DNA from: a virus | Taxonomy: Duplodnaviria; Caudoviricetes | IMG/VR virus record: IMGVR_UViG_3300020471_000096 | Span: 1 to 59,923 of that record | DNA length: 59,923 nucleotides | Direction: 5' to 3' (one strand) | Part shown: positions 2,789 to 37,320 of the stretch, piece after piece | Layout of the letters: each line of letters begins with the position of its first letter | Position numbering within the stretch: position 1 is the first letter of the stretch | Translations under genes and position numbers: made by a program | Notes under the pieces: generated by a model | Told to the model about the DNA's origin: nothing | Seen by the model: the letters and a program-made list of their open reading frames with translations, nothing else | Databases searched by the model: none

Positions 2789-3415
2789 TTAAGCCTCATA
2801 GCCTATTAATTCAATTAATAGCTTACCTGCAGTATAGTCTGCATCTGTTGTTGACCCTAATGTTAGATACAAAAACTCATCTGCTGCTGGTAATCCAGTA
2901 AAATACACTTTTGTACCTATGGCTGCATTACCTGCATTGACTAATAATGTCTCTGTTAAACTTGAAATAGCGCCATCTTCCACACCAGTACCCTCTGTTG
3001 CAGAGTGTACGTTTATGTCATCTTCGCCACCTGCTGGGGTTTCAAAGCACTCCATACTACCAGCGATAATTGTGCCATTTTCTGCTGCTGTGATCTGGCC
3101 TATATGACAAACATTTGATGTGCCATCAACACCAATAATATCACCAGATGCTGTTGATCTTAGTCCAGTTAGGTCAATTAATATTCTTGTTGTTATAATT
3201 CCACCTTGTCTCATGACAGAGCTTCTGTAAATAGTTCCGGTTCCACCTGTGATACCAGTTCCTGCTTCTGTAGTGAGTTTATTAGCATCTAAAGATGCAA
3301 ATCCACTAGAATTAATACTTGATTGAGTTGTGATTGTTCCAGTTGTAGCGTTCTTGCTTATAGTGGTGAATCCACCCTCAGAACGGACCGGACCTGAGAA
3401 AGTTGTATTAGCCAT
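2789..3415 (-). CDS. Putative capsid decoration/minor structural protein
   Basis: MANTTFSGPVRS N-terminus; T/G/S-rich; directly after the major capsid gene; AGGAG RBS. Confidence 0.7.
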   Translation of the reverse strand: MANTTFSGPVRSEGGFTTISKNATTGTITTQSSINSSGFASLDANKLTTEAGTGITGGTGTIYRSSVMRQGGIITTRILIDLTGLRSTASGDIIGVDGTSNVCHIGQITAAENGTIIAGSMECFETPAGGEDDINVHSATEGTGVEDGAISSLTETLLVNAGNAAIGTKVYFTGLPAADEFLYLTLGSTTDADYTAGKLLIELIGYEA

Positions 3416-3468
3416 GTATAATCTCCTTGTCGTGGCAAATGTCTGCTAATGCAGTCAAGGGTTAAAGG

Positions 3469-3503: not shown

Positions 3504-4409
3504 TTATGCTCCCGGTGAACCAAACATTCCGAGAGGATCTGACACACCAAATGAGTATCTCTCACGGGCTTTGTATCTTACGTTACCTGTGTTGAAATCC
3601 CCATCCATTGATGTAGACATAGGTGTTCTCACGAACATCTTCATTCCATTAGGAACATCAGTTGTCAAGAAAAACGCATCTGTATCTGTTAAATAGTGAT
3701 TAACAGCAAAACCCTCTGGAATAGATCCGTTGGTTCTGATTGCGTTTAAGTCGTTATCTGCTGTTCCAACTCTTAGCTCTGATTGTAACACTCTAGTTGC
3801 AACAAACATTAGCGCTGGTGGAACGATAAGTTTTCTAGGTCTTGCTGCAATTAACAAACCTCTTTCGTCTACGAAAGCTGCAATGTCAATAACTGCTTGC
3901 TCTAAAGATGTCTCGTTCAAGTCAGCATTTGTTGTCAATCTATTTTTATTGTTACCACCAGCTACCGTTGGGTGAGCTGTGTTAAACAATGTTACACCAT
4001 CGCCACTAGTGAATGTATCAAAGCCTGTGTTAAGCAATGAAGCAGCTTTAGTCTGCTTTGTGTAAGCCATTGCTCTTGCTAGTGCTTTTGTATAACGAGC
4101 AGACAATGAATCATAAAGATTATCTTCCATTGCCTCTTCTGTTATTGAAAAGCCCATAGCCACAGTTTCGTGGTTGTACCTTGAAGTAAATGACTCTTGT
4201 GCAGAATCATAAGAAATAGCCGAACCCTCTGGCTTTACTGGGGCCGCCCCAAAGCCTGACAATTTGACTTCTTCTTCAAAACTACGCTCTGAGTTTTCTA
4301 CTTCATAAATTTCAGTATGTTCATCTTCATACTTCTCATACTCCAATCCAAACAATGCGTTTAGACCCGGTAATAGCTCCTTGAGGAGTTGCGCTCTTGA
4401 AATAGCCAT
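3504..4409 (-). CDS. Major capsid protein
   Basis: MAISRAQLLKELLPGLNALFGLEY ... YKARERYSFG, typical of this capsid family; GGAGG RBS; follows the scaffold gene. Confidence 0.9.
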   Translation of the reverse strand: MAISRAQLLKELLPGLNALFGLEYEKYEDEHTEIYEVENSERSFEEEVKLSGFGAAPVKPEGSAISYDSAQESFTSRYNHETVAMGFSITEEAMEDNLYDSLSARYTKALARAMAYTKQTKAASLLNTGFDTFTSGDGVTLFNTAHPTVAGGNNKNRLTTNADLNETSLEQAVIDIAAFVDERGLLIAARPRKLIVPPALMFVATRVLQSELRVGTADNDLNAIRTNGSIPEGFAVNHYLTDTDAFFLTTDVPNGMKMFVRTPMSTSMDGDFNTGNVRYKARERYSFGVSDPLGMFGSPGA

Positions 4410-11928: not shown

Positions 11929-11947
11929 AAAAGTTTACGTAACTTTT
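11929..11947. repeat. Dispersed TTACGTAA palindrome, copy 1
   Basis: AAAAGTTTACGTAACTTTT at the terS stop. Confidence 0.75.
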
Positions 11948-12468
11948 TATTTGGAAATTATACTGTTTAGCTTGTTCAGTAATTCGTTTTCTATTTCTAC
12001 TGATGACCTATCACGTTTATCATCCACCTTTAAAACGTCAGTAAATAATCCATGATGCTTTCCAAGTAATTCTAAACCTTTCAGCCGGACTGCATCAGTT
12101 ACATTTACATCATCAGCCATCTTTTCTATCTTCTGTAATATTACGTCACTCCTTTTGACGCTGTCCATGCTATGCAATTGCTGTTTATGCTCTAATAACT
12201 TATTTATTGTTAAGGTTATGTTAATGTCTGCTCTTAGCTTAGATGCCATTGCTCTTAAAGAATTACCTTTAGTTTTTTCTGATACATTATAGTTGTTACG
12301 ATATGCATCAATATACGTCATATCATTGAATACAATATCCCTACAAAATCCCATTTGCTTTGCTGTCAATTCTGATCCAATAACATTAGATTTTTTACTC
12401 TTATCTTTTTTCGCATTGTTATCACTTACCAATTTTAATTTAGGTTTATTATCTTTTTTATCTGACAT
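11947..12468 (-). CDS. terS: Terminase small subunit
   Basis: LTAKQMGFC...DAYRNNY HTH pattern and LKGLELLGKHHGLFTD; upstream of terL. Confidence 0.85.
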   Translation of the reverse strand: MSDKKDNKPKLKLVSDNNAKKDKSKKSNVIGSELTAKQMGFCRDIVFNDMTYIDAYRNNYNVSEKTKGNSLRAMASKLRADINITLTINKLLEHKQQLHSMDSVKRSDVILQKIEKMADDVNVTDAVRLKGLELLGKHHGLFTDVLKVDDKRDRSSVEIENELLNKLNSIISK

Positions 12469-12480
12469 ATTTTTATCCTC

Positions 12481-12500
12481 AAAAGTTTACGTAAAGTTTT
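12481..12500. repeat. Dispersed TTACGTAA palindrome, copy 2
   Basis: AAAAGTTTACGTAAAGTTTT abutting the terS RBS. Confidence 0.85.
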
Positions 12501-12749
12501 AATATCATGTTCCTTAGACCTGCGACCTTTACCAATGATAGCACTTTATTATCTTTGTTTGTAGTCTCATTTCGTGAAATATTCATTGCTGTCGATTTAA
12601 GAGGCATACAGCACATGTAAGCAGTTTAGGCTGTATTGCTACCTAAAAGTAAGTTTCAGCGTTTTTGTTGTCCACCTTGGATTACAGAAGATTTAGTCTT
12701 AGTAAGTAAAATAATGTTCCTATAAGTTAAATAATATCAACTTTAGTGC

Positions 12750-12778
12750 TTGTATTCTTAGTCTAAAAATTATATATA
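12750..12778 (+). promoter_or_regulatory. Putative early promoter
   Basis: TTGTAT-17-TATATA; predicted +1 near 12783-12785, at the first base pair of the leader RNA. Confidence 0.5.
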
Positions 12779-12784
12779 AATAGG

Positions 12785-12986
12785 ACAGCCTCTGTTTGGC
12801 AACTCGTTTGAACTGTAAAGCAAACATCCCTTTTTTAACCTACTTGGGAAATTAGGATCTCGGAGACCGGAACTTGTTTTGGTCATGACCTCGAAAAGGC
12901 AAGAGCGATACAGCCCCCACAATTCGGTCTGATGAGGATGACGATATGGGCTAGTAGTTTCTTACGAGTTTCCAAATAGAGGTTGT
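12785..12986 (+). ncRNA. ~200-nt structured leader RNA, family not recognised
   Basis: 12785-12807 pairs with 12964-12986 (20 WC, 2 GU, 1 mismatch); nested stems CATCC/GGATG, AGACCGGA/TTCGGTCT, CTTG/CAAG; possible AGCCC/GGGCT pseudoknot. Confidence 0.7.
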
Positions 12987-13023
12987 AACAATTCAAATCA
13001 ATCAAACAACAATGGAGATCATT

Positions 13024-13380
13024 ATGTACAAGAAATTAAATAAAGACGAAATCAAGTTACTCAGACTATTATCTGATGCTTACAACTTTGGAAACATTGC
13101 TGATGTAGATAGTCCAACAGCCACAGAGTTTGGTGGTAAGTTTGTTGGCAACTACGAGACAATGGATTTAGTAAATGGATTAGATCACAATCTAGTTTCT
13201 CAGATTTGTAATCCAATATCTCAGATCATAACCTCGATGATTGGTAAAGAGCTACATGATCTTTGGATCAATGGATCAAACTACGATGTAGATTGGTTAA
13301 TCAATTTTACAGACAGCCAAGAGACAGTTGGCATTGAGCCATCAGAATTTGGTGGATGGAATGTTCCAAATGAAAGTTAA
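13024..13380 (+). CDS. Early hypothetical protein (start MYKKL)
   Basis: GGAG RBS before ATG 13024; acidic. Confidence 0.8.
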   Translation: MYKKLNKDEIKLLRLLSDAYNFGNIADVDSPTATEFGGKFVGNYETMDLVNGLDHNLVSQICNPISQIITSMIGKELHDLWINGSNYDVDWLINFTDSQETVGIEPSEFGGWNVPNES

Positions 13381-13385
13381 AAAAA

Positions 13386-13407
13386 GGGGGGCAAGAAATT
13401 GCCCCTC
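13386..13407 (+). other. GC hairpin with GAAA tetraloop upstream of hammerhead 1
   Basis: GGGGCAA-GAAA-TTGCCCC; A-run on the left could make it a minus-strand terminator; no U-tract on the plus strand. Confidence 0.8.
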
Positions 13408-13460
13408 AACTGTCATCAAGTGTGTGCTTGATCTGATGAGACCAAAAGGTCGAAACAGTT
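13408..13460 (+). ncRNA. Type III hammerhead ribozyme HH1 (cleavage after GUC, C13414)
   Basis: Stem III AACTGT/ACAGTT; stem I ATCAAG-TGTGTG-CTTGAT; core CTGATGA; stem II GACC-AAAA-GGTC; GAAA. Confidence 0.95.
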
Positions 13461-13480
13461 AATCAACTATGGAGTATCAT

Positions 13481-13968: not shown

Positions 13969-13988
13969 GGGGGCAAGAGATTGCCCCC
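13969..13988 (+). other. GC hairpin with GAGA tetraloop upstream of hammerhead 2
   Basis: GGGGGCAA-GAGA-TTGCCCCC; paralogous to 13386-13407. Confidence 0.8.
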
Positions 13989-14045
13989 TTAACTGTAATG
14001 CAATGTGTGTTGCATCTGATGATCTCAAAAGAGTGAAACAGTTAA
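13989..14045 (+). ncRNA. Type III hammerhead ribozyme HH2 (cleavage after GUA, A13997)
   Basis: Stem III TTAACTGT/ACAGTTAA; stem I ATGCAA-TGTGTG-TTGCAT; CTGATGA; T-CTC-AAAA-GAG-T; GAAA. Confidence 0.9.
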
Positions 14046-14063
14046 TCAAATATGGAGACAATC

Positions 14064-16729: not shown

Positions 16730-17950
16730 ATGCAGAATTTAAAACTAGAAGATAAGTTCTCAAAGATTAGGATACAGCTACTATGGGATCGTGACGATAA
16801 AGGTCATGCTTTTTATGGTGCTGTCTTAGTCAAGATGAAGATTATCGAAAAGAACAGCATCCCAACATTTGCAACTGATGGGCGAGACATATTCTATAAC
16901 AAAGAATTTGCTGAGAGTTTAGATTTCGAGCCACTCAAAGGTGTAGTTGTTCATGAGGTTGGTCATAGATTTCTTATGCACCATACAAGACAGCAAGAAC
17001 GTGATGCTGAGATTTGGAACATAGCATGTGATTTATCAATGAACCAAGTTCTTAAAAGATCCGGTTTTGTTTTACCAAAAGGTGCTTTGTTTGATCCACA
17101 GTTTGATGGATGGATGGCTGAAAAGATTTATAACTTTATCTATCCACAGATCAAAGCTAAACAGCAACAGCAACAGCAACAAGGTCAAGATGGTCAAGGC
17201 GATCAAGGGGATCAATCAGATAATGGCGATCCAACTTGGTTACAGCCACAATCATGGGGCAACATCGAAGACAATGTTACTGAGGGCATGTCTCAAGCTG
17301 AGATCAGCGAAGAAGAGGCTGATGTTAAAGAGGAGATATTCCAAGCTGTCAGACAAGCTAAAGAACGTGGAACATTACCGGCAGAGGTCAAGCAAATGGT
17401 CAAGGTTATGAAACGTGCTGAGATCAATTGGGAAGACGTTGTTGAAAGGCATCTTGAGGGCGATGTTCCTCATAATTATAGCTATCGCAGAATACATAAA
17501 AAGTTCTACTACACTCATGAGATGATTGCTCCAACACTTGAGCATATTGGTGTTGGTCATATTGTTGTGGCTGTGGATAGTTCCGGCTCTGTATCAAATA
17601 AAGAGTTGCAGTATTTTCTTGGTGGTCTCAATGCTATGGCATTAGATCTTAAACCAAAATCTATAACTGTAATTACATGCGACAGCAAAATACAAAATGT
17701 TATCAAGTATGATCAAGGCGATGAAATAAAAATGATATCTGCTGATGGTCGTGGTGGTACATGTGTTATGCCGGTGTTCAACTACATTAAAGAAAATGAT
17801 CTTGAGGTAGACAGCTTTATTTATTTTACTGACATGGGCATATATGATTTTCCTACAGAGGAACAGCCATATCCGGTTCTGTGGGTAAGCACAGACCTAC
17901 GTGCTGATAATGCACCTATTGGTCAAACAACCTATCTGAAAGTGGCTTAA
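16730..17950 (+). CDS. HExxH metallopeptidase-like + VWA domain protein (DUF2201-type), partner of the AAA ATPase
   Basis: TFATDG, HEVGH, WNIACD, Q-rich linker, MIDAS VDSSGS, GRGGT, YFTD; GGAG RBS before ATG 16730. Confidence 0.88.
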   Translation: MQNLKLEDKFSKIRIQLLWDRDDKGHAFYGAVLVKMKIIEKNSIPTFATDGRDIFYNKEFAESLDFEPLKGVVVHEVGHRFLMHHTRQQERDAEIWNIACDLSMNQVLKRSGFVLPKGALFDPQFDGWMAEKIYNFIYPQIKAKQQQQQQQGQDGQGDQGDQSDNGDPTWLQPQSWGNIEDNVTEGMSQAEISEEEADVKEEIFQAVRQAKERGTLPAEVKQMVKVMKRAEINWEDVVERHLEGDVPHNYSYRRIHKKFYYTHEMIAPTLEHIGVGHIVVAVDSSGSVSNKELQYFLGGLNAMALDLKPKSITVITCDSKIQNVIKYDQGDEIKMISADGRGGTCVMPVFNYIKENDLEVDSFIYFTDMGIYDFPTEEQPYPVLWVSTDLRADNAPIGQTTYLKVA

Positions 17951-17976
17951 TGCTACTTTTAGATAAAAACAAGGCT

Positions 17977-18029
17977 CTAGGAACGTCACACAGAGGCGAA
18001 ACGATATGTCTGTGTGTGATTGTACCTAG
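17977..18029 (+). other. Hairpin upstream of hammerhead 3
   Basis: CTAGG/CCTAG outer stem and CACACAGA/TCTGTGTG inner stem. Confidence 0.6.
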
Positions 18030-18042
18030 GGATTTTAACGAT

Positions 18043-18095
18043 GCTGATATAGGAATGTGTGTTCCTACTGATGATTGCGAAAGCATGAAATCAGC
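18043..18095 (+). ncRNA. Type III hammerhead ribozyme HH3 (cleavage after AUA, A18049)
   Basis: Stem III GCTGAT/ATCAGC; stem I TAGGAA-TGTGTG-TTCCTA; CTGATGA; T-TGC-GAAA-GCA-T; GAAA. Confidence 0.9.
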
Positions 18096-18123
18096 CAACT
18101 ACTATCATTATATGGAGTATTTT

Positions 18124-19116
18124 ATGATACATAATTTTGGAAAAAAACAAGATCCTAAATCTCAAGAGTTTAAGGATCAAATAGTCTTAAAGCATTATCT
18201 CAACTTTTTAAACGAGGGATACAAAGCATTTGGATTAAACGAAAACCAAAAAGCTAGTCTAGTAAAAGCCGGATCTAATTATTCATATCATGCAGACGAT
18301 TTATCTGCTGAAGAAAAAGATTTTGTTTTTATGTTTACCAAGCACAAAGATCATTTTGGCAATCATGGTTTAGACAGCATTTACAATTGTAGTGCTTGGA
18401 TCAAGCAACACAGAAAGGCTCGTAAAGATAAGTCTGCCATTTACAGCAATAAGATTGATGGCAAAAAAGTATTTCGTAAAGAACGTAATTACGAGCATGG
18501 TTTCTTCAATGGTCAAGCTGTTAACAGCAAGTATGCTGTACTCACTAATGCCTTTGCTAAAAAATGGTGGGATGACAATATGGCTAGAACCAATGTCAAG
18601 ATTAGTGCTGATGCATTAAGAGCAGAAACAGCTATTAAACCATCTACTGTAGGAAGAGCAGATAATTGGCAGTACTACGAGCATTTCAATGAGGTTTCTT
18701 TGTCTCCATCATGGTTTAAAAATGTCTACATGAAAGGTTTGGCAACAACAGTATACAAAAGCAAAACAGCATTTGTTGCTAGTGCCAAGCCTCTCAAAGT
18801 TTCTGACAGAATTACAGCTAATGGTCTTGAGGCTTATACTGTTGATATCATTACAAGCCACGATGGTATTATCAGCATGGAGAAAGATCTGTATTATTTG
18901 GTTTACCAAACAAAGGCTTGGACAATTGAAGAAACACAGCAAGGCATGGGCAATATACCTTTTAGGGGCAACGACAGAGAAACTGCTCAAACTTACAATA
19001 ATCGTAGGTATAACATAGCTGAGACTATAAACTGTGCATCCTCAAACTTTAGAAGAGCAGAGAATGTCATGAGTGGCAGAGTTCAGCGAAACATACTTAA
19101 TGCAATGGGAGTGTAA
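18124..19116 (+). CDS. Early hypothetical protein (true start MIHNF, not 17950)
   Basis: Leader TATGGAGTATTTTATG matches the other ribozyme-linked leaders. Confidence 0.8.
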   Translation: MIHNFGKKQDPKSQEFKDQIVLKHYLNFLNEGYKAFGLNENQKASLVKAGSNYSYHADDLSAEEKDFVFMFTKHKDHFGNHGLDSIYNCSAWIKQHRKARKDKSAIYSNKIDGKKVFRKERNYEHGFFNGQAVNSKYAVLTNAFAKKWWDDNMARTNVKISADALRAETAIKPSTVGRADNWQYYEHFNEVSLSPSWFKNVYMKGLATTVYKSKTAFVASAKPLKVSDRITANGLEAYTVDIITSHDGIISMEKDLYYLVYQTKAWTIEETQQGMGNIPFRGNDRETAQTYNNRRYNIAETINCASSNFRRAENVMSGRVQRNILNAMGV

Positions 19117-28695: not shown

Positions 28696-31600
28696 TCATG
28701 CAGTTTGTCTTATGCCCACACTTCTCATTAACTGAATACCTTTTCTCATGATCTCTTGTATTCGTTCTCTACGTAATTTAATAAGTTTTTGTCTGACATC
28801 ATCTGACAGTCGAAGATTTCGTTCTAACTCCTTGATCTGTCTCAACAATCTGTTTCTTGCGTTGTCTAAAGCCTTAAATCTACCATATATGCGTACCTCG
28901 TCATCGTACCTAGCGATAAGTTTACGTATAGTTTCGGGATCACCTCTTCTTCTTGCTAAGTCAATTCTAGAAAATATCGTGTATAGCTCTTTTCTCTTTT
29001 CTAAATAATTTTGTGTATCTACTCTATCTGACGGCTGTTTTATTACTTTTCTAACAAATGGTATTCTGTTTGGTAAGTTACCCTCAAAGTCTCCGGAAGC
29101 TATAGCCGGTATGACATCAAAAACTAGATTAGCTGATCTACCTATAAAAGCACCAGCACCTCCTATTACATACTCATAAAAATATTCTATCGTGTCAGGA
29201 GATATGTCAATCAAACCACTTTCTACTTCATCTCCAAATGTTAAATCATTTATAGTTTGTACTATAAATTTAGATACAGCACCGGTATTTGTCCAATGTG
29301 TATAAGCATCAGGAACATTCGTTGTTGAGTACATAGGCGTTTCTTTGTATATAGGATCGTTTCTGTAATTTTTATTAATATACATTTCTACTGCCGGTTT
29401 AAAAGCAGTTGGTATTACGTATGTTTCAAAGTTCTCTATTGCACCAAAAGGAGATAATGTTTCCATAGTTGTGTCAAAAATACTATTTGCTGCTTGACCA
29501 AAAGTATATTCGCCTCGTGTGTAGCGGCTAAGAGATCTGCCTAAATTAAATGGCATATTAAGTCCATAAGCCAATGGTATTGCTATAAACTTATCTTCCA
29601 TTAAACCAAAAGATGGAAATATTAAATTATGCTCTAAATCATATTCATTTAATTTATCATAAGTTATTGGATCATCATCTTCTGACGGATCGTCTAAAAA
29701 TGCTAATAGTTGATCTTGCAAAAATCCATAAACTATTATGCCACCTAATATTTTTCTTACCTTTTTAGATTTATAAGCCGCATTGTATATAGCCATACTA
29801 CCTTGCAAGGATGCGTTATAAAATAAATACAAAGAGTTCATAAATACTTTATCTTCACCACCTTTGGCAAAGTTTACCGTTACGTTCCTAGCTGCTTCGG
29901 CAGCCCTAGCATCAGTAAATCCTCTTTTTTTCAAATTAGTAAACGTGGCAACACGTACACCATTCTCAATAACAGTATTGTAATCTTCTAAAAACTGTAA
30001 AAGACTTCTTCCTTTTTTTCTAAAGAATCCATTTCTTTTAAATCCTAATGTTTTAGCTTCACTAATATCCATTAACAACTTACTAAGATTCTCCATTTGA
30101 TCTTGCACAGTTCCCATTTGGTTAGTGGCGTTCTTGCCACCTGCCTTTACAAATTTTAAATATTCTTGTGACCAATAACTAGATGTGTCTGGCGTTCTTT
30201 TGCCAAAAGGATTTGCACCAACACCAAAAACTTTTCTAATCCCATTTATAGCACCAGCAACATCTCTAGTTATCTCTTTTGTAATACCTTCTGCATCATG
30301 TTGTTGTATATTTACTAAAGCTGTTTCCAAGTCTTTTGCAAAGTTTGGAATAACGAAAGCTGGGTTGTAAGAAGTATTAACATTAGATAAAAATCTATTT
30401 AATTTAGATAAAGTTCTAAATGCAACATGATGTGTTTTAGGTTCGTAATGATGCTTGAAAGATCTGGACATACTTTCTCTGTAAAAGTTTACGTAAACTT
30501 GTTGACCATTCTCTTTTATTGCAATCTGATGTGGGTCCATAGGTTCTGCTTCAGTTGTTATTTCTGCAAAATTTTGCTGTAAATCTGTAGCCAACGCATC
30601 GTTTATAGCCGTGCTACCATCAGGTTGTTCTTCTTGACCTCTTAATAATCTTAAAAGACTCTGACCTACTTTATTTCTTTCTGATCTATCTATCGCTCTT
30701 TGGTTTTGGGCAATAACTGATGCAAAAATATTTTCTGCATACTTAATACCACGGCCTCTAGCTACTTTGTCCTCTCTTCCTAAAGCGCCAAAGTAATTAG
30801 TTGTTTTACGTAATGTATTTTGTCTATCCTCTTTCATCTCAACATCAATGTCTAAATCACCACGTAAAGGTACATAGTATTTAAATCTAGCACCCTCTTG
30901 ATGCTCATCGTATTCTGCTTTATCTATTAATCCACTTTCATATCTAATATTATTAGTACTATTAACTATTCTTCTAGTTTGTTTATTGATAAATTGAAAA
31001 ATATCTTTATTTGATTGATCTAAACTGTCAAACCAATCTAATATTACATCAGCTTCAGCCTTTGATAATCCTGAACCATTAGGTCTGGCATAGCGATTTG
31101 CTATATCTATATTTCTCTCTTTTGCATGCATAGCGTAAAGATATATATCTGTTAAAGCTAACTTAACATCTATTGAAGAATCTATAGTTTTGTTAACTAA
31201 TCCCTCTCCTTGCTCTTGCGCAGCGGCTCTAGCAGAGGCATTTTTTAATTCTGTTAATTTTTCATCCGAAACTTTTATTTTTTTAATTTCTTCAATAGTT
31301 GGTTTAACTATAGTTTCTTCTAAATCAGTTAATTTATCTCCTATAATACCTGAAGAATTTACTTCTCTTAGATAAGGGTCCATAGCATCAGCTATTGTGT
31401 AGCCTTTATCACGCAACTCATCCATCATTGCGCCAACAGGTTGAAAAGAGTCTTGATATTTTTGCACTATCTTTTGTGCGGCCTGCGCTCTAGTGTTGCC
31501 AAATAAAAATGACTCAGGCACTACTTTAAATGCTTTAGCCAAAACCCCTGCTAAATTATTATATCTTATATTTAACTGAGCCTGTGCAATGTCACGATCA

Positions 31601-34600
31601 TTTTGCTGTGCCTGTCTTTGTCTCTCACTAGAAGGTGTTGCTCTTATTCTTGAGCGTCTAGTCTCAGGTGTTCCGGTAGAGTCTCTTCCAATTCCGCTGT
31701 CATTTCTGGTATTCCTTCCGGATACATAAGGTCTAGGTAGTTCTGTCTCGTAACTGGCATCCCTACTGAATTGAGGTATTGTATTAGGGGGTCTTGCCCA
31801 ACTTGGTTCCGCAAATCCATCTGGCGTAGCATTTATTATCTCCTGTCTTGTTTGATCTAAAGTTAATCCACCATCTACATATGATCTCCATATGTTATTT
31901 ATTCTTTCAACATTTTGTGTTTCATTTTTAAATGTATCAGGAAACAAACCTCTTATAGCTTCCCATGTTATTGATTGCATTTGCCTTGGCAAAATACCTC
32001 TTTGTTCTGCGGCTCTTGCATAGGCATCATATATTAATCCATACATGCCTCTAACACCTGTAACAGAGGAATTAGGTATGATTCCGTATAGGTCCGCTCT
32101 ACCCTTCGCAGTATATAATCCAAAATTTTGATCTACTTCAAAAGATTTACCACTTAAAGGTTTAAAAAATGCTACTGCAACCGCATGCGTATCTATTGTA
32201 GAATGACCGTCTGGAGACATAGGCGTAATTATATTATTAAAAAAACTTCTAACTTTATGCCTGTCACCAAGTAATACAGATACTTGTTGTAAAGAATTGT
32301 CACCACGCAACTCTAATAACTGCATAGCTTTATCTATAGTATTATTAGAACCCCAACCTGTGCCTTTAGGATCGCCTTGAACACCAAATATGGATTCATA
32401 ATTTGATAGCGTCTTTTTTCCTAACTGTGCTTTCGATGGTTTTTTTCTTGCGTAATCTAAAAATTCACCCTCTGGAGTTATTACTCTATGACCTCTGTCA
32501 TTATATGTTTCATCAAATATTCTAACCCAAAGAGCTTTGTGAAAAGAAAACTGTAAACTATCTAGGCTTGTAGAATCTCTATTAGGATTAGATATGTGCT
32601 TTATAGCAGCTTGTATTGCTTTATTTTTACCGTATATCCTCTTTGCTGTTTTTACCATCTCTGGTGTAAAGTCTTTATCACTATGATTTCTAGCGATATC
32701 CATAACCCTTTCAGCTAATGAAACATTCATATACCAATCTTTTTGTGGTGACTGCACTGCCATAACCGCAGCAACTACTTCAGGAGGATAATTATACGTT
32801 TTTGAAAACTTATCTACTATGTTTCTTGCGCCATCGTACCAAAGAGAAGATCTTTCTCTAATTGTAGGATCTATGGAATCATGAACAAATAATATGTTAT
32901 TTGTCATAGCCTGAATGTGATCTTCTATAATTTCTTCATTTGAAAAGTTTACGTAACGTTTTGCATTTTCTGATAAATTATATTTTTTAATTATATCAGC
33001 AGCATTTTTTGCAAGTTTAGAATCATTCTTTATAAGATCTCCATTTATAAATAACAACTCAGCAGATGGATCTGCCTCTCTTGCTTTTGCGGTAGGAAAT
33101 CTTGTGCTAACTGTATGTTCTTGTCCCACAACTCTGGTTCTAGATCTCATGGTTCTTTTTGCATCAACACCACGTTTTTGGTTTATACCATCTTTATATG
33201 CTTGATCATACTTCTTAGCTTGATACGTCTCTGGCACTCTCAACTCATAAAACATAGCCGCCATAGTTCCACGGAAAGGATCATTTATCCAATAACCCGT
33301 AGCGCCAGACTCTTTAATCATCCTTTCTTTAGCAGTAGTTATGTAATTAACACGACCAGTTGGGTCTTTGATATCAGGTCTACTTTTATCTAATTCTGCA
33401 TTTGCTGCATCGTTGAATTTTTCTGGGTCTGCTTCCCAATCATACATACCTTCATACGGTACATCCAATTCGTATATATTATCTCCTAAGTTTTGTTCCG
33501 GATTATAACCATTAGGATCAGATATATTTACAGCAAAATAGCTTCTAGCAGGATATCCCTCAAAAGTTCTTCTCCTCTCTTCTCCCCGCATAAATAAATT
33601 AGACCTTTGTTTTTCTGGGTCTATGCTTTGGAGGCCCTCGATAGGAGAGAAGTGTGTTAGCTTGACTGTCCTTTGCGGAGATAACTCAGGTTCCCTCCTT
33701 TCTTTTGTCGATTCAATCGTGCTTCGTATAACGCTGCGTCTTCCATCTCTTCTTGCATCTCTTCCTCTGTCAGTTGCATCATCTCTTGTTTCACTAAATC
33801 GTTCATCTTCTTGAATTGCTCTTTCATCTACTGCTCCCTCTATATTATTAGCTAATCCCTCTGTTTGCACAAAATCAGACAGTAAAGTTATCTTTTGATC
33901 TGCGTATATTGTTTCTTCAGCTTTATTTTTGCTATTTCTATTATGGTCTCCAACAGCATCACTGTAGTTAAGCCATGAGTTTTGTCCTCTTGTTTCTGTG
34001 GTCATAGCTCTAGCGGCTAACGGGGTATACATACGGCTATGTGCCTGCCAAGCATTTTCTTCACCTCTAGCTGAAAAAGTAGCACCCTCTAATGCGTGAC
34101 CAAAGTAATCATGAACTATTCTAAATAAATCATTATATCGAGCATCACGACCATCAATTATCTCACCAGTTGTCTGTAATAATGGGTTCTCTGCTATATC
34201 TTGGTCCGTTATAGCATCACTGCCAAAACCATCGTCTGTAGCAAAAACCCACATATGATTATTATTGATATCTTCTAATAAATCTTTAGATGCTCTTGGG
34301 TATGGGTTTGCTTGATTTGGCTTAATAAATTCTATTTGTATTCCTGTATCTTTTATAAATAACCATTGATTAAATGTTTCATCAGCCATAGCTTTGTATG
34401 CTTGTATTACCTCTGGATTAGTTGGGTCATGCTTTGCTTCGTCAAAGTCTTTAGCTATTCTTCTAGCTAACTCTTCATTTACTTGCACATACCTATCAGG
34501 CCTTGTATTAGGCATACCTATCGATTGTAAATATCTAGACTTAACAACATGCGCTATAGGTAAGGGTCCTATAGAACCTCTGTGTAAATCTGGTAATCTA

Positions 34601-37320
34601 TCAATAATTATACGTGATCTACGTGGCTCAGTAACAGTTTCAGGATCATCCGGCTTTCTATCTCTTCTACCTATCTGCTTTTCTATCTCTGTTGTGCCTA
34701 TATTTTCAAAAATTTGTTCTGTCTGTGTAAAACCTTGATCTGCATGCGAACCAAATATAGCTTTGAAAAAAGCAACAATTCTATCAAAAAGACTCTTTGG
34801 TTTACCGCCAAATTTAAGTTTACCATCAGTATAGTCTCTATACATCTCTGCAATAGCTTCTTCTACTATTTGTTCATTTGGCATACCATCACGTATATAA
34901 GCATGAGTAGCTCTTTCATAATATGTATAACTTCTTGTTGTATCTGTGCCTTTTGATCTTTTGACATATTTTCTTGTCATTGCAGCTTTTTTTAATATGT
35001 CATATTCCTGATCTGTAAAAACATTTAAACTTTTTAATGCATGAATAATTTCATGATTCATGACACTTCCTAACTTTGCCTGCAACTCAGCATCAGTCAT
35101 ATTAGGATCGTATATTTCCATTGCTAACGCTATGATACGTTTGCCATCAGGTGAAACTTCTTGTATGCCTTCAGTTATACCTATGTCTTGTCCTCTTGAA
35201 AGGTCTTCTGTTAACTGTGCAGCATCTAATAATGGTCTACCTTCTAACCTTACATCAGTTAATCCTATTCTATTTAGCTCTGCTCGTAGAGCATCAAGAA
35301 CACGCTTTTGTTTTAATACATATTCTGGAGTTTCTTTTGTTTTAGTAGCTTGATCAAAGACCTTTTTAGGCGCAAGTGCAGGAGCTATTCTTCTAGCTTG
35401 TATTGTTTGTTGACCTTGCACAGCCTGATTAGCTTTATTTTCTAAATTAAAGGCCTCTAATTGTATATCACTATATCTTTTTTGTAATAAATCTAATTGT
35501 TGACTGTTAGTTTCAAGATTAACTGGATCATTACGAAATATGTTTCTTTGCTTTCTTAGTCTATCATCAGCTTCTCTTATTTGCCTTGCTCTTTCAGATA
35601 AAGCTCTTGCCTGTTCAATAAAATCTAAATTTACATCTACCTGATTTCTAGGTGAATATCTACCTTTTCCATCATACTGCAATAAACCAGATCCTAACAT
35701 TTGAGCCAATGCACCATCAGCAATATCATCTGGCATTTTTTCTTTGTATAGTTTTTGATATACTCTTTTTGCTGCAGCTCTATTAATTATTTTTTGTTTT
35801 AATAGATTTTCTTGAAATTTTATTACTTGTTCTTTTGTTTCTTGTGTGATGCGCTCTGCTTCTAATTCAGCATCTGATATTTCCTCTAATGCAGGCACTT
35901 TATTTAAAGTAGGTTTTTGTAAAATTTTTTCTCTTAAAGATGCTTCAGGGCCAACAACTTCTTCTAATTCTTGTATTGTTACGGGATCATCTACAGGTAT
36001 GCCTTTTTTTAATTCTATTCTTTGTTTACGTATTTTAAACGCTTCATCTTCTGGCAAACTCTCTAATTTCACAGGATTATATGGAGTTGTAGCCTCTCTT
36101 GCAGCCTGTAATGTATCTTCAGTATTTTTTCTTTTTTGATTTTCTTGGGCATCAACTGCTGATTGATTGTCTATATCAGTAACAGGATCGCCAGATGGTA
36201 GGATAATTGGAGCATCGGGTGCAGGCAATCCAAGGCCCGGACCCTCTATTAGTTTTACTTGTTTATCTTCTTGGGTTTTTAAATAATCTTTTGCATTTTG
36301 AGCCATACTAGCATTTTCTCTAGCAGCTTCATCTGCATCATTATCTAATTCTTTTTGTTTCTTTTCGTATTGATTTACTCTTCTGCCTCTAATACTGTCT
36401 AATATTAAATTTAAAGCAAAACCTGCGCCACCACCATAAACGGCATCATCATATGCACTTTGTCCAACTTGAACATCTGGGTTGTAAATATTTTTTTCAG
36501 TTAAATCTTGAAGTATACCTGCAACTAACTCTTGAGTACCCTCTCCAATACCAACACCAATGCTTCTTTTTATTCTGCCGCCTATAGTTTTTACTGCTTC
36601 ATCTATATCTTTTTTGTCTACTTTTTTTAAAATTTTTAAAGAAGCTCCTAAGCTCTTGCTTAACGCAGCAAAAGGTATAGCCTCTGATGTACCAATTAAA
36701 GCGCTTAATAATACAGCATCTGCTTTTTGCGAACCGTCTATAACACCGCCATTTTCTAAAAAATTAGCAATCCTATTCATCTGATCTTGTGATGTTAAAG
36801 CCGCACCCTGTGTTGCAACAGTGCCTAAACCTAAATATGAAGCAATTTTAGGGGCAGCGCCTGCAACTGCCAAACCACTTTTAACAGCCCATCCACCTGC
36901 TAAAAAAGAGGCAAGAGACCCACCTGCTTGACCAAATTTACTATAAGGACTTTCATTAAAATCAAAAGTATCTGCTAAAGCTCTACTAGCGCCTTTAGAA
37001 AAATTTTGTGCAGCTTCTCCTAATCCTGTCTCACCGGGTGCTACATCGAAGCCTAATCTTTGCCCAACGCCTTCACCTATTGAGGCTATACCACCGGGTA
37101 AATCTGTAAAACCTCTTATAAAACTTCCAACAAAACTTTTAGGGACATCAATAAGACTCCCTTCTTCTTCCGCTGTTTCAGGCGCTTCTAATAAAACACC
37201 ATCTTCTCTAGCAATATATTTTTGTATAAATTGGTCTTCTGCTGCAGTGGGCCTGTTACCAGCTATCAATATAGGGTATGTTTTACCAGTTAAGTTACTT
37301 TTTACATTAATTGTACCCAT
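28696..37320 (-). CDS. 2874-aa large polyvalent internal virion (ejection) protein
   Basis: Last gene of the structural operon; Gly/Ala-rich N-terminus, HEIIH and HDYFGH motifs, LPD38-like C-terminus. Confidence 0.8.
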   Translation of the reverse strand: MGTINVKSNLTGKTYPILIAGNRPTAAEDQFIQKYIAREDGVLLEAPETAEEEGSLIDVPKSFVGSFIRGFTDLPGGIASIGEGVGQRLGFDVAPGETGLGEAAQNFSKGASRALADTFDFNESPYSKFGQAGGSLASFLAGGWAVKSGLAVAGAAPKIASYLGLGTVATQGAALTSQDQMNRIANFLENGGVIDGSQKADAVLLSALIGTSEAIPFAALSKSLGASLKILKKVDKKDIDEAVKTIGGRIKRSIGVGIGEGTQELVAGILQDLTEKNIYNPDVQVGQSAYDDAVYGGGAGFALNLILDSIRGRRVNQYEKKQKELDNDADEAARENASMAQNAKDYLKTQEDKQVKLIEGPGLGLPAPDAPIILPSGDPVTDIDNQSAVDAQENQKRKNTEDTLQAAREATTPYNPVKLESLPEDEAFKIRKQRIELKKGIPVDDPVTIQELEEVVGPEASLREKILQKPTLNKVPALEEISDAELEAERITQETKEQVIKFQENLLKQKIINRAAAKRVYQKLYKEKMPDDIADGALAQMLGSGLLQYDGKGRYSPRNQVDVNLDFIEQARALSERARQIREADDRLRKQRNIFRNDPVNLETNSQQLDLLQKRYSDIQLEAFNLENKANQAVQGQQTIQARRIAPALAPKKVFDQATKTKETPEYVLKQKRVLDALRAELNRIGLTDVRLEGRPLLDAAQLTEDLSRGQDIGITEGIQEVSPDGKRIIALAMEIYDPNMTDAELQAKLGSVMNHEIIHALKSLNVFTDQEYDILKKAAMTRKYVKRSKGTDTTRSYTYYERATHAYIRDGMPNEQIVEEAIAEMYRDYTDGKLKFGGKPKSLFDRIVAFFKAIFGSHADQGFTQTEQIFENIGTTEIEKQIGRRDRKPDDPETVTEPRRSRIIIDRLPDLHRGSIGPLPIAHVVKSRYLQSIGMPNTRPDRYVQVNEELARRIAKDFDEAKHDPTNPEVIQAYKAMADETFNQWLFIKDTGIQIEFIKPNQANPYPRASKDLLEDINNNHMWVFATDDGFGSDAITDQDIAENPLLQTTGEIIDGRDARYNDLFRIVHDYFGHALEGATFSARGEENAWQAHSRMYTPLAARAMTTETRGQNSWLNYSDAVGDHNRNSKNKAEETIYADQKITLLSDFVQTEGLANNIEGAVDERAIQEDERFSETRDDATDRGRDARRDGRRSVIRSTIESTKERREPELSPQRTVKLTHFSPIEGLQSIDPEKQRSNLFMRGEERRRTFEGYPARSYFAVNISDPNGYNPEQNLGDNIYELDVPYEGMYDWEADPEKFNDAANAELDKSRPDIKDPTGRVNYITTAKERMIKESGATGYWINDPFRGTMAAMFYELRVPETYQAKKYDQAYKDGINQKRGVDAKRTMRSRTRVVGQEHTVSTRFPTAKAREADPSAELLFINGDLIKNDSKLAKNAADIIKKYNLSENAKRYVNFSNEEIIEDHIQAMTNNILFVHDSIDPTIRERSSLWYDGARNIVDKFSKTYNYPPEVVAAVMAVQSPQKDWYMNVSLAERVMDIARNHSDKDFTPEMVKTAKRIYGKNKAIQAAIKHISNPNRDSTSLDSLQFSFHKALWVRIFDETYNDRGHRVITPEGEFLDYARKKPSKAQLGKKTLSNYESIFGVQGDPKGTGWGSNNTIDKAMQLLELRGDNSLQQVSVLLGDRHKVRSFFNNIITPMSPDGHSTIDTHAVAVAFFKPLSGKSFEVDQNFGLYTAKGRADLYGIIPNSSVTGVRGMYGLIYDAYARAAEQRGILPRQMQSITWEAIRGLFPDTFKNETQNVERINNIWRSYVDGGLTLDQTRQEIINATPDGFAEPSWARPPNTIPQFSRDASYETELPRPYVSGRNTRNDSGIGRDSTGTPETRRSRIRATPSSERQRQAQQNDRDIAQAQLNIRYNNLAGVLAKAFKVVPESFLFGNTRAQAAQKIVQKYQDSFQPVGAMMDELRDKGYTIADAMDPYLREVNSSGIIGDKLTDLEETIVKPTIEEIKKIKVSDEKLTELKNASARAAAQEQGEGLVNKTIDSSIDVKLALTDIYLYAMHAKERNIDIANRYARPNGSGLSKAEADVILDWFDSLDQSNKDIFQFINKQTRRIVNSTNNIRYESGLIDKAEYDEHQEGARFKYYVPLRGDLDIDVEMKEDRQNTLRKTTNYFGALGREDKVARGRGIKYAENIFASVIAQNQRAIDRSERNKVGQSLLRLLRGQEEQPDGSTAINDALATDLQQNFAEITTEAEPMDPHQIAIKENGQQVYVNFYRESMSRSFKHHYEPKTHHVAFRTLSKLNRFLSNVNTSYNPAFVIPNFAKDLETALVNIQQHDAEGITKEITRDVAGAINGIRKVFGVGANPFGKRTPDTSSYWSQEYLKFVKAGGKNATNQMGTVQDQMENLSKLLMDISEAKTLGFKRNGFFRKKGRSLLQFLEDYNTVIENGVRVATFTNLKKRGFTDARAAEAARNVTVNFAKGGEDKVFMNSLYLFYNASLQGSMAIYNAAYKSKKVRKILGGIIVYGFLQDQLLAFLDDPSEDDDPITYDKLNEYDLEHNLIFPSFGLMEDKFIAIPLAYGLNMPFNLGRSLSRYTRGEYTFGQAANSIFDTTMETLSPFGAIENFETYVIPTAFKPAVEMYINKNYRNDPIYKETPMYSTTNVPDAYTHWTNTGAVSKFIVQTINDLTFGDEVESGLIDISPDTIEYFYEYVIGGAGAFIGRSANLVFDVIPAIASGDFEGNLPNRIPFVRKVIKQPSDRVDTQNYLEKRKELYTIFSRIDLARRRGDPETIRKLIARYDDEVRIYGRFKALDNARNRLLRQIKELERNLRLSDDVRQKLIKLRRERIQEIMRKGIQLMRSVGIRQTA
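30483..30500. repeat. Dispersed TTACGTAA palindrome, copy 7 (intragenic)
   Basis: AAAAGTTTACGTAAACTT, with a perfect 16-bp core. Confidence 0.75.
31644..31832 (-). CDS. Overprinted 62-aa acidic ORF nested in the giant gene
   Basis: AGGAG 7 nt before ATG; globular-looking sequence while the main frame is a low-complexity linker. Confidence 0.65.
   Translation of the reverse strand: MLRQMDLRNQVGQDPLIQYLNSVGMPVTRQNYLDLMYPEGIPEMTAELEETLPEHLRLDAQE
32943..32962. repeat. Dispersed TTACGTAA palindrome, copy 8 (intragenic)
   Basis: AAAAGTTTACGTAACGTTTT. Confidence 0.7.
33657..33827 (-). CDS. Overprinted 56-aa ORF nested in the giant gene
   Basis: GAGGGAG 6 nt before ATG; MKEQFKKMNDLVKQEMMQLTEEEMQEEMEDAALYEARLNRQKKGGNLSYLRKGQSS. 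Confidence 0.55.
   Translation of the reverse strand: MKEQFKKMNDLVKQEMMQLTEEEMQEEMEDAALYEARLNRQKKGGNLSYLRKGQSS

What the first reader, a model, noticed from the sequence alone, without database searches (positions are those of the whole stretch)
12785..12986. Unrecognised ~200-nt multi-stem RNA at the very start of the early transcript
Seen: a 23-position closing helix begins right at the predicted +1 of a TTGTAT-17-TATATA promoter. Its two GU pairs favour RNA on the plus strand. It encloses CATCC/GGATG, CCTA/TAGG, AGACCGGA/TTCGGTCT, CTTG/CAAG with an inner CCT-CGAAA-AGG, and a crossing AGCCC(12912)/GGGCT(12948) pairing that would be a pseudoknot. It is GC-richer than its surroundings, has no ORF, and is followed by the same AATCAA...ATGGAG leader as the hammerheads. 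Inference: it occupies the ribozyme slot of the first cassette, so it may be a new ribozyme, riboswitch or decoy RNA, or an RNase III-released small RNA.
Basis: partly seen in the sequence, partly recalled or inferred. Interest (0 to 1): 0.78.

Follow-up and report, generated by a model that had tools for sequence, protein, structure and literature searches.

The report
New structured leader RNA in marine phages
The first 200 bases of this marine phage's early transcript fold into a conserved, uncatalogued RNA whose paired parts co-evolve and whose unpaired parts barely change, so it is a real RNA gene of unknown job rather than a chance hairpin.

Summary
The element at 12785-12986 is real. 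It is one of 37 distinct sequences (174-253 nt) of a conserved plus-strand RNA found in viral and marine metagenome contigs. All lie between terS and the first early gene of phages whose large terminase is about 54-56% identical to that of Pelagibacter phage HTVC027P and phage 023Pt_psg01.

Covariation supports six helices:
- a closing stem with 22-27 standard pairs
- five inner helices (P2-P6)

The unpaired junctions and loops are almost invariant. No Rfam family matches, even in a search of the element alone.

Three of the five inner pairings it proposed are not conserved, and the "pseudoknot" clashes with a covarying helix. The CUGAUGA inside the element is not a hammerhead core.

Two context results bear on function. 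The gene downstream differs among relatives (about 11 families). A near-identical sister phage carries an unrelated leader RNA plus a hammerhead in the same slot.

I read the element as a self-contained non-coding module, probably freed by double-strand cleavage of its long stem. Its target is unknown. Expression is untested.

The parts
12750..12778 (+). Putative sigma-70-type early promoter: TTGTAT, 17-nt spacer, TATATA.
   Evidence: Read. Similar boxes sit at the same place in relatives. The scan does not list it, because its rule needs a T at the sixth -10 base.
12785..12812 (+). P1 5' strand (P1a 12785-12799, P1b 12801-12807, P1c 12808-12812). Its first 17 nt are also the 5' motif shared with unrelated leader types.
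   Evidence: helix 1: 27 pairs, 92.6% of cells paired, 7 pairs changed on both sides. 22-27 standard pairs per sequence. Shared motif.
12959..12986 (+). P1 3' strand.
12813..12821 (+). P2 5' strand (12813-12817 and 12820-12821, with a 2x2 internal loop). Pairs with 12905-12906 and 12909-12913.
   Evidence: helix 2: 5 of 8 pairs changed on both sides. Predicted independently by RNAalifold and by the MFE fold of a minimal member.
12822..12828 (+). Junction AAACAUC, invariant in 31 sequences. CAUC (12825-12828) is complementary to the P5 loop (candidate pseudoknot PK1).
   Evidence: Invariance. PK1: helix 3, no covariation; 5 cells unpaired, all in the F-type.
12829..12836 (+). P3 5' strand. Pairs with 12893-12899.
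   Evidence: helix 4: 98.4% paired, 5 of 7 pairs changed on both sides.
12839..12856 (+). P4 hairpin (12839-12842 with 12853-12856). Its loop carries an invariant UGGGA; UGGG (12845-12848) is complementary to CCCA at 12916-12919 (candidate PK2).
   Evidence: helix 5: 4 of 4 pairs changed on both sides. Helix 6 (PK2): never covaries, one G-U.
12857..12892 (+). Subtype-specific insertion, absent from minimal members.
   Evidence: Alignments. Pair counts. Constrained folds.
12893..12913 (+). P3 3' strand (12893-12899), invariant CAAGA junction (12900-12904) and P2 3' strand (12905-12913).
12914..12925 (+). C-rich junction CCCCCACAAUUC, invariant among 31 sequences except one C-to-U. 12920-12921 and 12924-12925 form the 5' strand of P6.
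   Evidence: P6: helix 7, 100% paired, 2 of 4 pairs changed on both sides (both in the F-type).
12927..12939 (+). P5 hairpin (12927-12930 with 12936-12939) with the GAUGA loop (12931-12935). The loop is invariant in 36 of 37 sequences.
   Evidence: helix 8: 4 of 4 pairs changed on both sides. L288 has GAUAA in the loop.
12942..12950 (+). Conserved CGAUAUGGG. 12943-12944 and 12947-12948 form the 3' strand of P6.
   Evidence: An alternative nested pairing of CCCA with this UGGG was predicted.
12987..13026 (+). Unstructured A-rich linker, ribosome site GGAG (13014-13017) and the likely true start ATG (13024) of the first early gene.
   Evidence: Homologues align from residue 4. The distance from element to start codon is 33-64 nt in 41 contexts.
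13406..13463 (+). Type III hammerhead 1, preceded by a GC hairpin at 13388-13405.
   Evidence: Rfam Hammerhead_1: 22.2 bits, below the gathering score of 34. Three-stem fold. Hairpin.
13990..14046 (+). Type III hammerhead 2, preceded by a GC hairpin at 13969-13988.
18031..18098 (+). Type III hammerhead 3, followed by GGAG and ATG at 18125.
   Evidence: three-stem form in the centroid fold.

Best explanation
Shown: 12785-12986 encodes a plus-strand structured RNA that belongs to a conserved, uncatalogued family of 174-253 nt.

Its architecture is:
- P1, a closing stem with 22-27 standard pairs.
- A three-way junction above P1.
- One arm made of P2, an invariant internal loop, P3 and P4. Some members carry an optional extra hairpin here.
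- A second arm made of P6, a conserved internal loop and P5.
- An invariant GAUGA loop on P5 that is complementary to an invariant CAUC in the first arm.
- A UGGG in the P4 loop that is complementary to CCCA at the junction.

Inferred: it is a self-contained non-coding module, the first 'cassette' of the early transcript. It is not a regulator of one particular gene. In sister phages the same slot holds a different structured leader that a hammerhead would cut off the mRNA. Here no hammerhead follows. I propose that the long P1 stem is cut by a double-strand-specific RNase (RNase III). That would release a compact core RNA of about 150-180 nt and leave a trimmed early mRNA.

Speculative: the released RNA acts in trans early in infection on a host or phage partner that is still unknown. 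Its invariant loops and junctions would be the contact or active surface.
For: Real family and fold:
- 37 distinct sequences.
- On the MAFFT alignment, which was not fitted to any model, 95.8% of cells are paired. 16 pairs changed on both sides, against 4.9 (sd 1.5) in shuffles (0 of 500 reach it) and 1-4 when partners are slid.
- RNAalifold on the same alignment predicts P1, P2, P3 and P5 unaided; 15 of its 44 pairs are compensatory.
- On the model-fitted alignment of 37 sequences, 93.9% of cells are paired. 27 of 62 pairs changed on both sides, against 16.6 (sd 2.1) in shuffles and 6-8 slid.
- The MFE fold of a minimal 175-nt member recovers P1-P5.
- Plus strand: 110 G-U cells against 28 A-C cells.

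Functional core: 47 of 72 ungapped unpaired columns are invariant, against 19 of 46 inner paired columns.

Not gene-specific: 41 distinct element-plus-downstream contexts carry 18 different N-termini, which I group by eye into about 11 gene families.

A swappable module:
- L164 is about 99% identical to the window over 12469-12688.
- It shares the first 17 nt of the element and the ribosome-site leader.
- In between it carries an unrelated leader of about 230 nt, a GC hairpin and a hammerhead.
- 0 of 41 contexts have a hammerhead between this element and the start codon.

Long stem: 22-27 standard pairs of 27 in every one of 31 sequences.

Precedent: phage transcripts cut into gene-length pieces by hammerheads (Perreault 2011, PMC3088659, passages read).
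Against: - No expression or processing data exist. No RNA run holds the stretch, so even transcription is inferred from the promoter-like boxes and from covariation.
- RNase III cleavage is inferred from stem length alone, and I did not check that the presumed SAR11-type host has the enzyme.
- P1 carries recurrent mismatches at two positions: 17 and 14 of 37 sequences.
- A long stem could simply insulate the fold.
- The sequences fall into about six subtypes from one phage clade, so the number of independent compensatory events is far smaller than the cell counts. The F-type accounts for all the covariation in P6 and most of it in P4.
- The two pseudoknots never covary, and PK1 loses one or two pairs in the F-type.
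- The equivalence with 'leader plus hammerhead' rests on one sister-phage comparison and the general layout.
- Nothing points to a target.
Confidence: 0.4

Rival explanations
1. It is a cis-acting sensor or operator in the 5' leader. Either it is a riboswitch-like aptamer, or it is the binding site of a host or phage protein that sets the output of the whole early operon.
For: - It always lies in the early leader.
- It has a three-way junction with two arms bridged by complementary loops. Its junctions are nearly invariant (47 of 72 unpaired columns). This is the layout of many aptamers (recalled knowledge).
- Optional peripheral hairpins surround a fixed core.
Against: - There is no expression platform. 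A 33-64 nt A-rich linker separates it from the start codon, and no terminator-like site lies between 12986 and 13024.
- P1 has 22-27 standard pairs, far too stable to be opened or closed by a ligand.
- The downstream gene varies.
- Near-identical phages do without the element.
- No Rfam riboswitch matches.
Confidence: 0.2
2. It is a new class of self-cleaving ribozyme that does for the first cassette what the hammerheads do for the later ones.
For: - Three hammerheads lie in the same operon.
- In L164 the same slot holds a leader plus a hammerhead.
- It has a conserved core and candidate pseudoknots.
- Recalled: new ribozyme classes were found before by looking near hammerheads.
Against: - No match to any Rfam ribozyme model at E up to 10.
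- The minimal size of 174 nt is large for this kind of ribozyme.
- Sequence beyond either end of P1 is not conserved, so no boundary cleavage site stands out.
- In the window and the F-type the RNA starts at or near +1, so a 5' cut would achieve nothing.
- The CUGAUGA is not conserved. Other subtypes have AGAGAUGA or UCGAUGA in its place.
Confidence: 0.1
3. It is a passive 5' structure. It protects the early mRNA from 5'-end-dependent decay or from Rho, and it insulates the ribosome site from upstream sequence. It has no specific partner.
For: - It lies at or near the 5' end, with a very stable stem.
- The later cistrons likewise start with a folded hammerhead remnant and end in GC hairpins.
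- The shared first 17 nt can form a small hairpin on their own. One compensatory change is seen in the L011 type.
Against: - A simple hairpin would do the job.
- Six covarying helices, about 47 invariant unpaired positions and conserved loop-loop complementarity point to a specific surface.
- Unpaired positions are more conserved than paired ones.
Confidence: 0.15
4. It is a promoter-proximal processive antitermination RNA (put-like) that modifies RNA polymerase, so that the enzyme reads through the hairpins between the early genes.
For: - It lies directly downstream of the early promoter.
- GC hairpins follow each early gene.
Against: - The intergenic hairpins have their T-runs on the minus strand, not the plus strand, so they are not evident plus-strand terminators.
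- Sister phages with the same hairpins lack the element.
- Its size and fold are unlike the put RNAs (recalled).
Confidence: 0.05
5. It is a DNA-level signal (packaging site, origin or operator), or a chance palindrome, and not an RNA.
For: It lies in the divergent region next to terS, beside other conserved non-coding blocks.
Against: - Compensatory changes keep the pairing intact, with G-U tolerated on the plus strand only: 110 G-U cells against 28 A-C cells.
- Nested, non-palindromic helices covary.
Confidence: 0.02

Closest known systems
Hammerhead-flanked gene cassettes in phage and prophage genomes (Perreault et al. 2011, PMC3088659; passages read)
   Same: The operon layout is the same: short genes separated by self-cleaving ribozymes just upstream of the next ribosome site. 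The window has three type III hammerheads. The element sits where sister phages have a leader plus a hammerhead.
   Different: The element is not a hammerhead. It has no conserved core, a different topology and three to four times the size, and no model matches.
phi29-type packaging RNA (pRNA). Recalled, not tested against a reference sequence.
   Same: Both are phage RNAs of roughly 120-175 nt made from the first early promoter. Both have a long helix formed by the 5' and 3' ends, a three-way junction, and two loops with complementary four-base sequences.
   Different: pRNA phages package protein-primed DNA without a small terminase, whereas this phage has terS and terL. There is no sequence or model match in Rfam. 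Whether the CAUC/GAUG pairing here is within or between molecules is unknown.
RNase III-processed early leaders of T7 and lambda. Recalled.
   Same: A long, imperfect double-stranded stem lies in an early leader and separates an upstream piece from the mRNA.
   Different: Those sites are simple stems. This stem encloses about 120-200 nt of conserved, covarying structure.
Orphan large structured RNAs linked to phages (GOLLD, ROOL) and the phage motifs in Rfam such as manA and wcaG
   Same: All are phage-borne, have strong covariation, have highly conserved unpaired nucleotides, and have no known function.
   Different: No Rfam match at all. This element is smaller than GOLLD or ROOL and has a fixed position at the head of the early operon.
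Three-way-junction riboswitch aptamers. Recalled as an architecture.
   Same: A closing stem carries two arms held side by side by a loop contact, and the junction is invariant.
   Different: The closing stem has 22-27 standard pairs, there is no expression platform, and the downstream gene varies.

Membership tests
Hammerhead ribozyme | A conserved catalytic core (CUGANGA and GAAA strands) joining three stems. | tested here: not met
   CUGAUGA occurs in the window (12929-12935), but its first bases form the P5 stem. They change to AGAGAUGA or UCGAUGA in other subtypes. No GAAA strand sits in the required position.
Hammerhead ribozyme | A match to the Rfam hammerhead covariance models. | tested here: not met
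   No hammerhead hit on the element at E up to 10. In the same scan the true hammerhead at 13427-13467 scores 22.2 bits.
Other self-cleaving ribozyme families held in Rfam release 15 | A match to the family's covariance model. | tested here: not met
   Scans of the element alone against every Rfam 15 family, in the window and in the minimal member L030, return only noise at about 12 bits. I did not list which ribozyme families that release holds.
Any self-cleaving ribozyme | Site-specific self-cleavage. | not testable with these tools
   This needs in vitro transcription assays.
Known riboswitch classes | A match to an Rfam aptamer model. | tested here: not met
Riboswitch (generic) | An expression platform: a terminator, or sequestering of the ribosome site, coupled to the aptamer's closing stem. 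| tested here: not met
   No terminator-like site lies between 12986 and 13024. The linker is 33-64 nt with no conserved pairing to P1. P1 has 22-27 standard pairs.
RNase III substrate | A double-stranded stem of about two helical turns (20 bp or more). | tested here: met
   22-27 standard pairs of 27 in all 31 sequences counted. The 20-bp threshold is recalled.
RNase III substrate | Staggered cleavage in the stem by the host enzyme. | not testable with these tools
   No RNA data. Presence of the host enzyme was not checked.
put-type antitermination RNA | Plus-strand intrinsic terminators downstream that must be read through. | tested here: inconclusive
   The intergenic GC hairpins score as terminators on the minus strand only. 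A few weak plus-strand sites lie inside genes.
phi29-type pRNA | A phage with protein-primed packaging and no small terminase; the RNA binds the portal. | tested here: not met
   terS (phrog_51), terL (phrog_38) and portal are present. Binding is not testable here.

The most novel reading that the evidence does not exclude
The element is the founding member of a new functional RNA class. It would be a compact RNA of about 150-180 nt with a ribozyme- or aptamer-grade conserved core, made as the very first product of infection and released from the early transcript. It would then act in trans, by catalysis, by binding a small signalling molecule, or as a decoy for a host factor, to take over or disarm the host cell. 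It would be one of several interchangeable non-coding 'cassettes' that these abundant marine phages swap at the head of their early operon.
Probability: 0.2. Interest if true: 0.8.

Novelty: new variant of a known kind. Interest (0 to 1): 0.6.

Why it matters
These phages are relatives of Pelagibacter (SAR11) phages, which are reported to be among the most abundant viruses in the sea. Almost nothing is known about how they start an infection.

A leader RNA with six covarying helices and an almost frozen unpaired core is the signature that has led in the past to new ribozymes, riboswitches and RNA-protein machines.

Near-identical phages carry either this RNA or a different structured leader plus a hammerhead. 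That suggests a swappable slot for non-coding RNA at the head of the early operon, alongside the shuffling of protein-gene cassettes.

The finding is directly testable: the family is small, and a 175-nt minimal form exists.

Tried and rejected
- **Rfam.** Gathering scan of the whole window: 0 hits. E-value scans of 2 kb, of the whole window and of the element alone found nothing for the element.
- **tRNA/tmRNA scan.** 0 genes.
- **blastn of 12600-13400 against 50,697 phage records.** No match.
- **Hammerhead reading of the internal CUGAUGA.** Rejected, see the membership test.
- **An HDV-like nested double pseudoknot.** Considered by eye. The 9 nt between the would-be P2 and P4 cannot hold P3, L3 and P1', so I dropped it.
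- **Loose pattern scan.** Model R1 was run on the 99 new loci and accepted only one of them, a truncated copy in L125.
- **Model R1 on other phage records.** No match at E up to 1 in HTVC027P, 023Pt_psg01 or three related IMG/VR records.
- **Two pattern scans of 185,579 species genomes.** One found 0 stretches. The other found 1, and R1 rejects it.
- **Metagenome scan.** 29 stretches: 28 are members and 1 (L215) is chance.
- **Expression.** No RNA holder is listed. Laying four runs gave DNA-like contigs from one run and nothing from three metatranscriptome runs. This is no evidence either way.
Its cells are 79-81% paired among the 16 insertion-bearing sequences. There is one possible compensatory event, because G at 12926 occurs only in the window type. 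The other insertion type offers a 6-nt complement that is broken in some members. I keep it only as a possible alternative conformer.
- **Pseudoknots PK1 and PK2.** Complementary and conserved, but with no covariation. They remain hypotheses.
- **Pfam and PHROG scans of 27 proteins in three calls, 23 of them not structural or packaging.** No RNA-binding or RNA-repair enzyme turned up.
- **Literature.** Searches found no paper that links pelagiphages with ribozymes or structured RNA. A term search of the main text of PMC12753301 and PMC9599517 found none of ribozyme, noncoding or intergenic. Supplements were not seen.
- **Strand folding.** I did the fold in a script instead.

Full report
**Setting.** The window is a complete IMG/VR virus record of 59,923 bases. 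Its large terminase is 54-56% identical to those of Pelagibacter phage HTVC027P and phage 023Pt_psg01. The element lies in the divergent region between terS (11947-12468, minus strand; phrog_51) and the first plus-strand gene. That gene's likely true start is ATG 13024, behind GGAG at 13014-13017.

**Observation.** The simple promoter scan does not list the site, because its -10 box ends in A.
- The plus strand folds to -68.5 kcal/mol (z -3.65; 0 of 200 shuffles as good). The minus strand gives -54.5 (z -2.16).
- GC is 0.45 against 0.27-0.38 around it.
- There is no plus-strand ORF of 30 aa or more.
- Two type III hammerheads follow the first and second genes. Each comes after a GC hairpin and before the same AAUCAA...GGAG leader. 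A third lies at about 18031-18098.
- Rfam scores the first hammerhead at 22.2 bits, below its gathering score of 34.

**Relatives.** I collected members in five ways:
- The 122-aa downstream protein brought 21 loci.
- A motif scan of viral contigs gave 41 stretches, 36 of them with the element.
- A metagenome scan gave 29 stretches, 28 of them members.
- terS-related loci: 21 of 26 carry the element. Of the other five, three are cut short and two carry another leader.
- The 80 closest terL relatives added two divergent subtypes, which I call E and F. The F-type scores only about 60 bits.

In all there are 37 distinct sequences of 174-253 nt. By my hand tally, 21 of the 34 terL-relative loci that hold at least 1.9 kb of upstream sequence carry the element. 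The model finds nothing in HTVC027P, 023Pt_psg01 or three related records. Two pattern scans of the species-genome collection found no member.

**Structure.**
- On a MAFFT alignment of 16 sequences, made before any model existed, my structure has 95.8% of cells paired. 16 pairs changed on both sides, against 4.9 (sd 1.5) in shuffles (0 of 500 reach it) and 1-4 when partners are slid.
- RNAalifold on that alignment predicts P1, P2, P3 and P5 on its own, with 15 compensatory pairs of 44.
- The MFE fold of a 175-nt minimal member recovers P1-P5 unaided.
- On the model-fitted alignment of all 37 sequences, 62 pairs are 93.9% paired. 27 pairs changed on both sides (shuffles 16.6, sd 2.1; slid 6-8), and the covariation score is 0.301 against 0.103.

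Pairs that changed on both sides, per helix:

| Helix | Pairs changed on both sides |
|---|---|
| P1 | 7 of 27 |
| P2 | 5 of 8 |
| P3 | 5 of 7 |
| P4 | 4 of 4 |
| P5 | 4 of 4 |
| P6 | 2 of 4 |

- The divergent F-type can adopt every helix with standard pairs. Its constrained fold is -53.8 kcal/mol against an MFE of -60.1, and the covariance model aligns it the same way.
- G-U cells outnumber A-C cells 110 to 28, so the RNA is the plus strand.

Caveats:
- The 37 sequences form about six subtypes of one clade, so independent events are few.
- The F-type supplies all the covariation in P6 and most of it in P4.
- The large alignment is fitted to the model.

**Conserved single strands.** 47 of 72 ungapped unpaired columns are invariant, against 19 of 46 inner paired columns (31 sequences). 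The invariant blocks are AAACAUC, UGGGAAA, CAAGA, the C-rich junction, GAUGA and CGAUAUGG.
- The GAUGA loop of P5 is complementary to CAUC. The UGGG of the P4 loop is complementary to CCCA at the junction.
- Neither pairing covaries. The first loses one or two pairs in the F-type. A nested alternative for the second was predicted by RNAalifold.
- I therefore list both as candidates only.

The closing helix and CCTA/TAGG stand. CATCC/GGATG (47% of cells paired), CTTG/CAAG (19%) and CCT/AGG (64%) do not. AGCCC/GGGCT is 86% paired, but it never covaries and it overlaps P2.

The strong AGACCGGA/TTCGGTCT helix lies in an insertion that only some members have, and it competes with P5. A second insertion type has a 6-nt complement to the same target, and G at 12926 is peculiar to the window type. 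An alternative conformer therefore cannot be excluded.

**Not a known family.** Rfam gives nothing at gathering score. It gives nothing meaningful at E up to 10 on the element alone, in two subtypes. The internal CUGAUGA is partly the P5 stem and changes in other subtypes, so it is not a hammerhead core.

**Context and function.**
- The element is always in the early leader, but it starts 6 to about 35 nt after the -10 box, depending on the phage.
- It is followed by a 33-64 nt A-rich linker.
- No hammerhead follows it in any of 41 contexts.
- Eighteen different N-termini follow it, which I group into about 11 gene families.
- L164 is about 99% identical to the window over 12469-12688. It shares the element's first 17 nt and the ribosome-site leader. 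In between it has an unrelated leader of about 230 nt, a GC hairpin and a hammerhead.
- That 'type-1' leader occurs as 8 distinct sequences in 13 loci. It has a compensatory helix of its own and no Rfam match.
- Other relatives carry further leader kinds.

The head of the early operon is therefore a slot for interchangeable non-coding modules. In the other modules a hammerhead would cut the leader off the mRNA.

By analogy, and because P1 keeps 22-27 standard pairs in every sequence, I propose that this element is released by double-strand-specific cleavage of P1 and then acts as a free RNA. That step and any target are inference.

**Rivals.** A cis-acting sensor or operator lacks an expression platform and faces a very stable P1. 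A new ribozyme has no model match and no conserved boundary site. A passive protective structure is too elaborate an explanation for this fold. A put-like antiterminator fails because the intergenic hairpins are terminator-like on the minus strand only.

**Expression** could not be tested. No RNA run holds the stretch.

**Literature.** Perreault et al. 2011 describe hammerheads flanking genes in prophage genomes (PMC3088659; passages read). Four searches listed no paper linking pelagiphages with ribozymes or structured RNAs. Term searches of the main text of two papers found none of ribozyme, noncoding or intergenic. Supplements were closed.

**Verdict.** This is a genuine, well-supported new structured RNA family at the head of the early transcript of a clade of marine phages.

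Noticed in passing
window 3413-3460 (-): Sub-threshold match to the Rfam Mu-gpT-DE RNA (42.7 bits, gathering score 49, E 1.7e-6). It lies just downstream of the 301-aa ORF at 3504-4409, whose identity I did not check.
   Followed up: no
L164:1401-1685 (-); also L011, L272, L334, L313, L361, L385: A second uncatalogued structured leader ('type-1') occupies the same slot in sister phages. There are 8 distinct sequences in 13 loci. It has a compensatory helix of its own (four different complementary strand pairs) and no Rfam match. It is always followed by a GC hairpin and a hammerhead. It holds a 13-19 aa mini-ORF that loses its ATG in L172.
   Followed up: partly
L013:about 2700-2960; L015:about 2650-2950; L347: Further unrelated leader modules sit in the same slot. 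L011 and L013 have near-identical flanks but different leader cores of about 230 nt.
   Followed up: no
window 12785-12801, and the same place in type-1 and type-2 leaders: Unrelated leader types share the first about 17 nt of the transcript. These bases can form a small hairpin (3-bp GC stem, 7-nt loop), with one compensatory swap in the L011 type.
   Followed up: partly
window 12570-12690: A conserved non-coding block between terS and the early promoter is shared with L011, L028, L045 and L164, and is about 99% identical in L164. AGTAAATAAT-like repeats follow it upstream of the promoter. It may be a packaging or regulatory site.
   Followed up: no
window 13388-13405 and 13969-13988: The GC hairpins after the early genes score as intrinsic terminators on the minus strand, with T-runs on that side, although the genes are on the plus strand.
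   Followed up: no
window 17950-19116: The listed 388-aa ORF probably starts at ATG 18125, after the third hammerhead and its GGAG site.
   Followed up: no
L164 (reverse strand), about 920-990 nt into the region upstream of terS: A type I hammerhead lies before another early gene, so both hammerhead topologies occur in one phage group. Relatives also carry CUGACGA core variants.
   Followed up: no
window 28696-37320 (-): A single ORF of 2,874 aa. I did not examine it.
   Followed up: no
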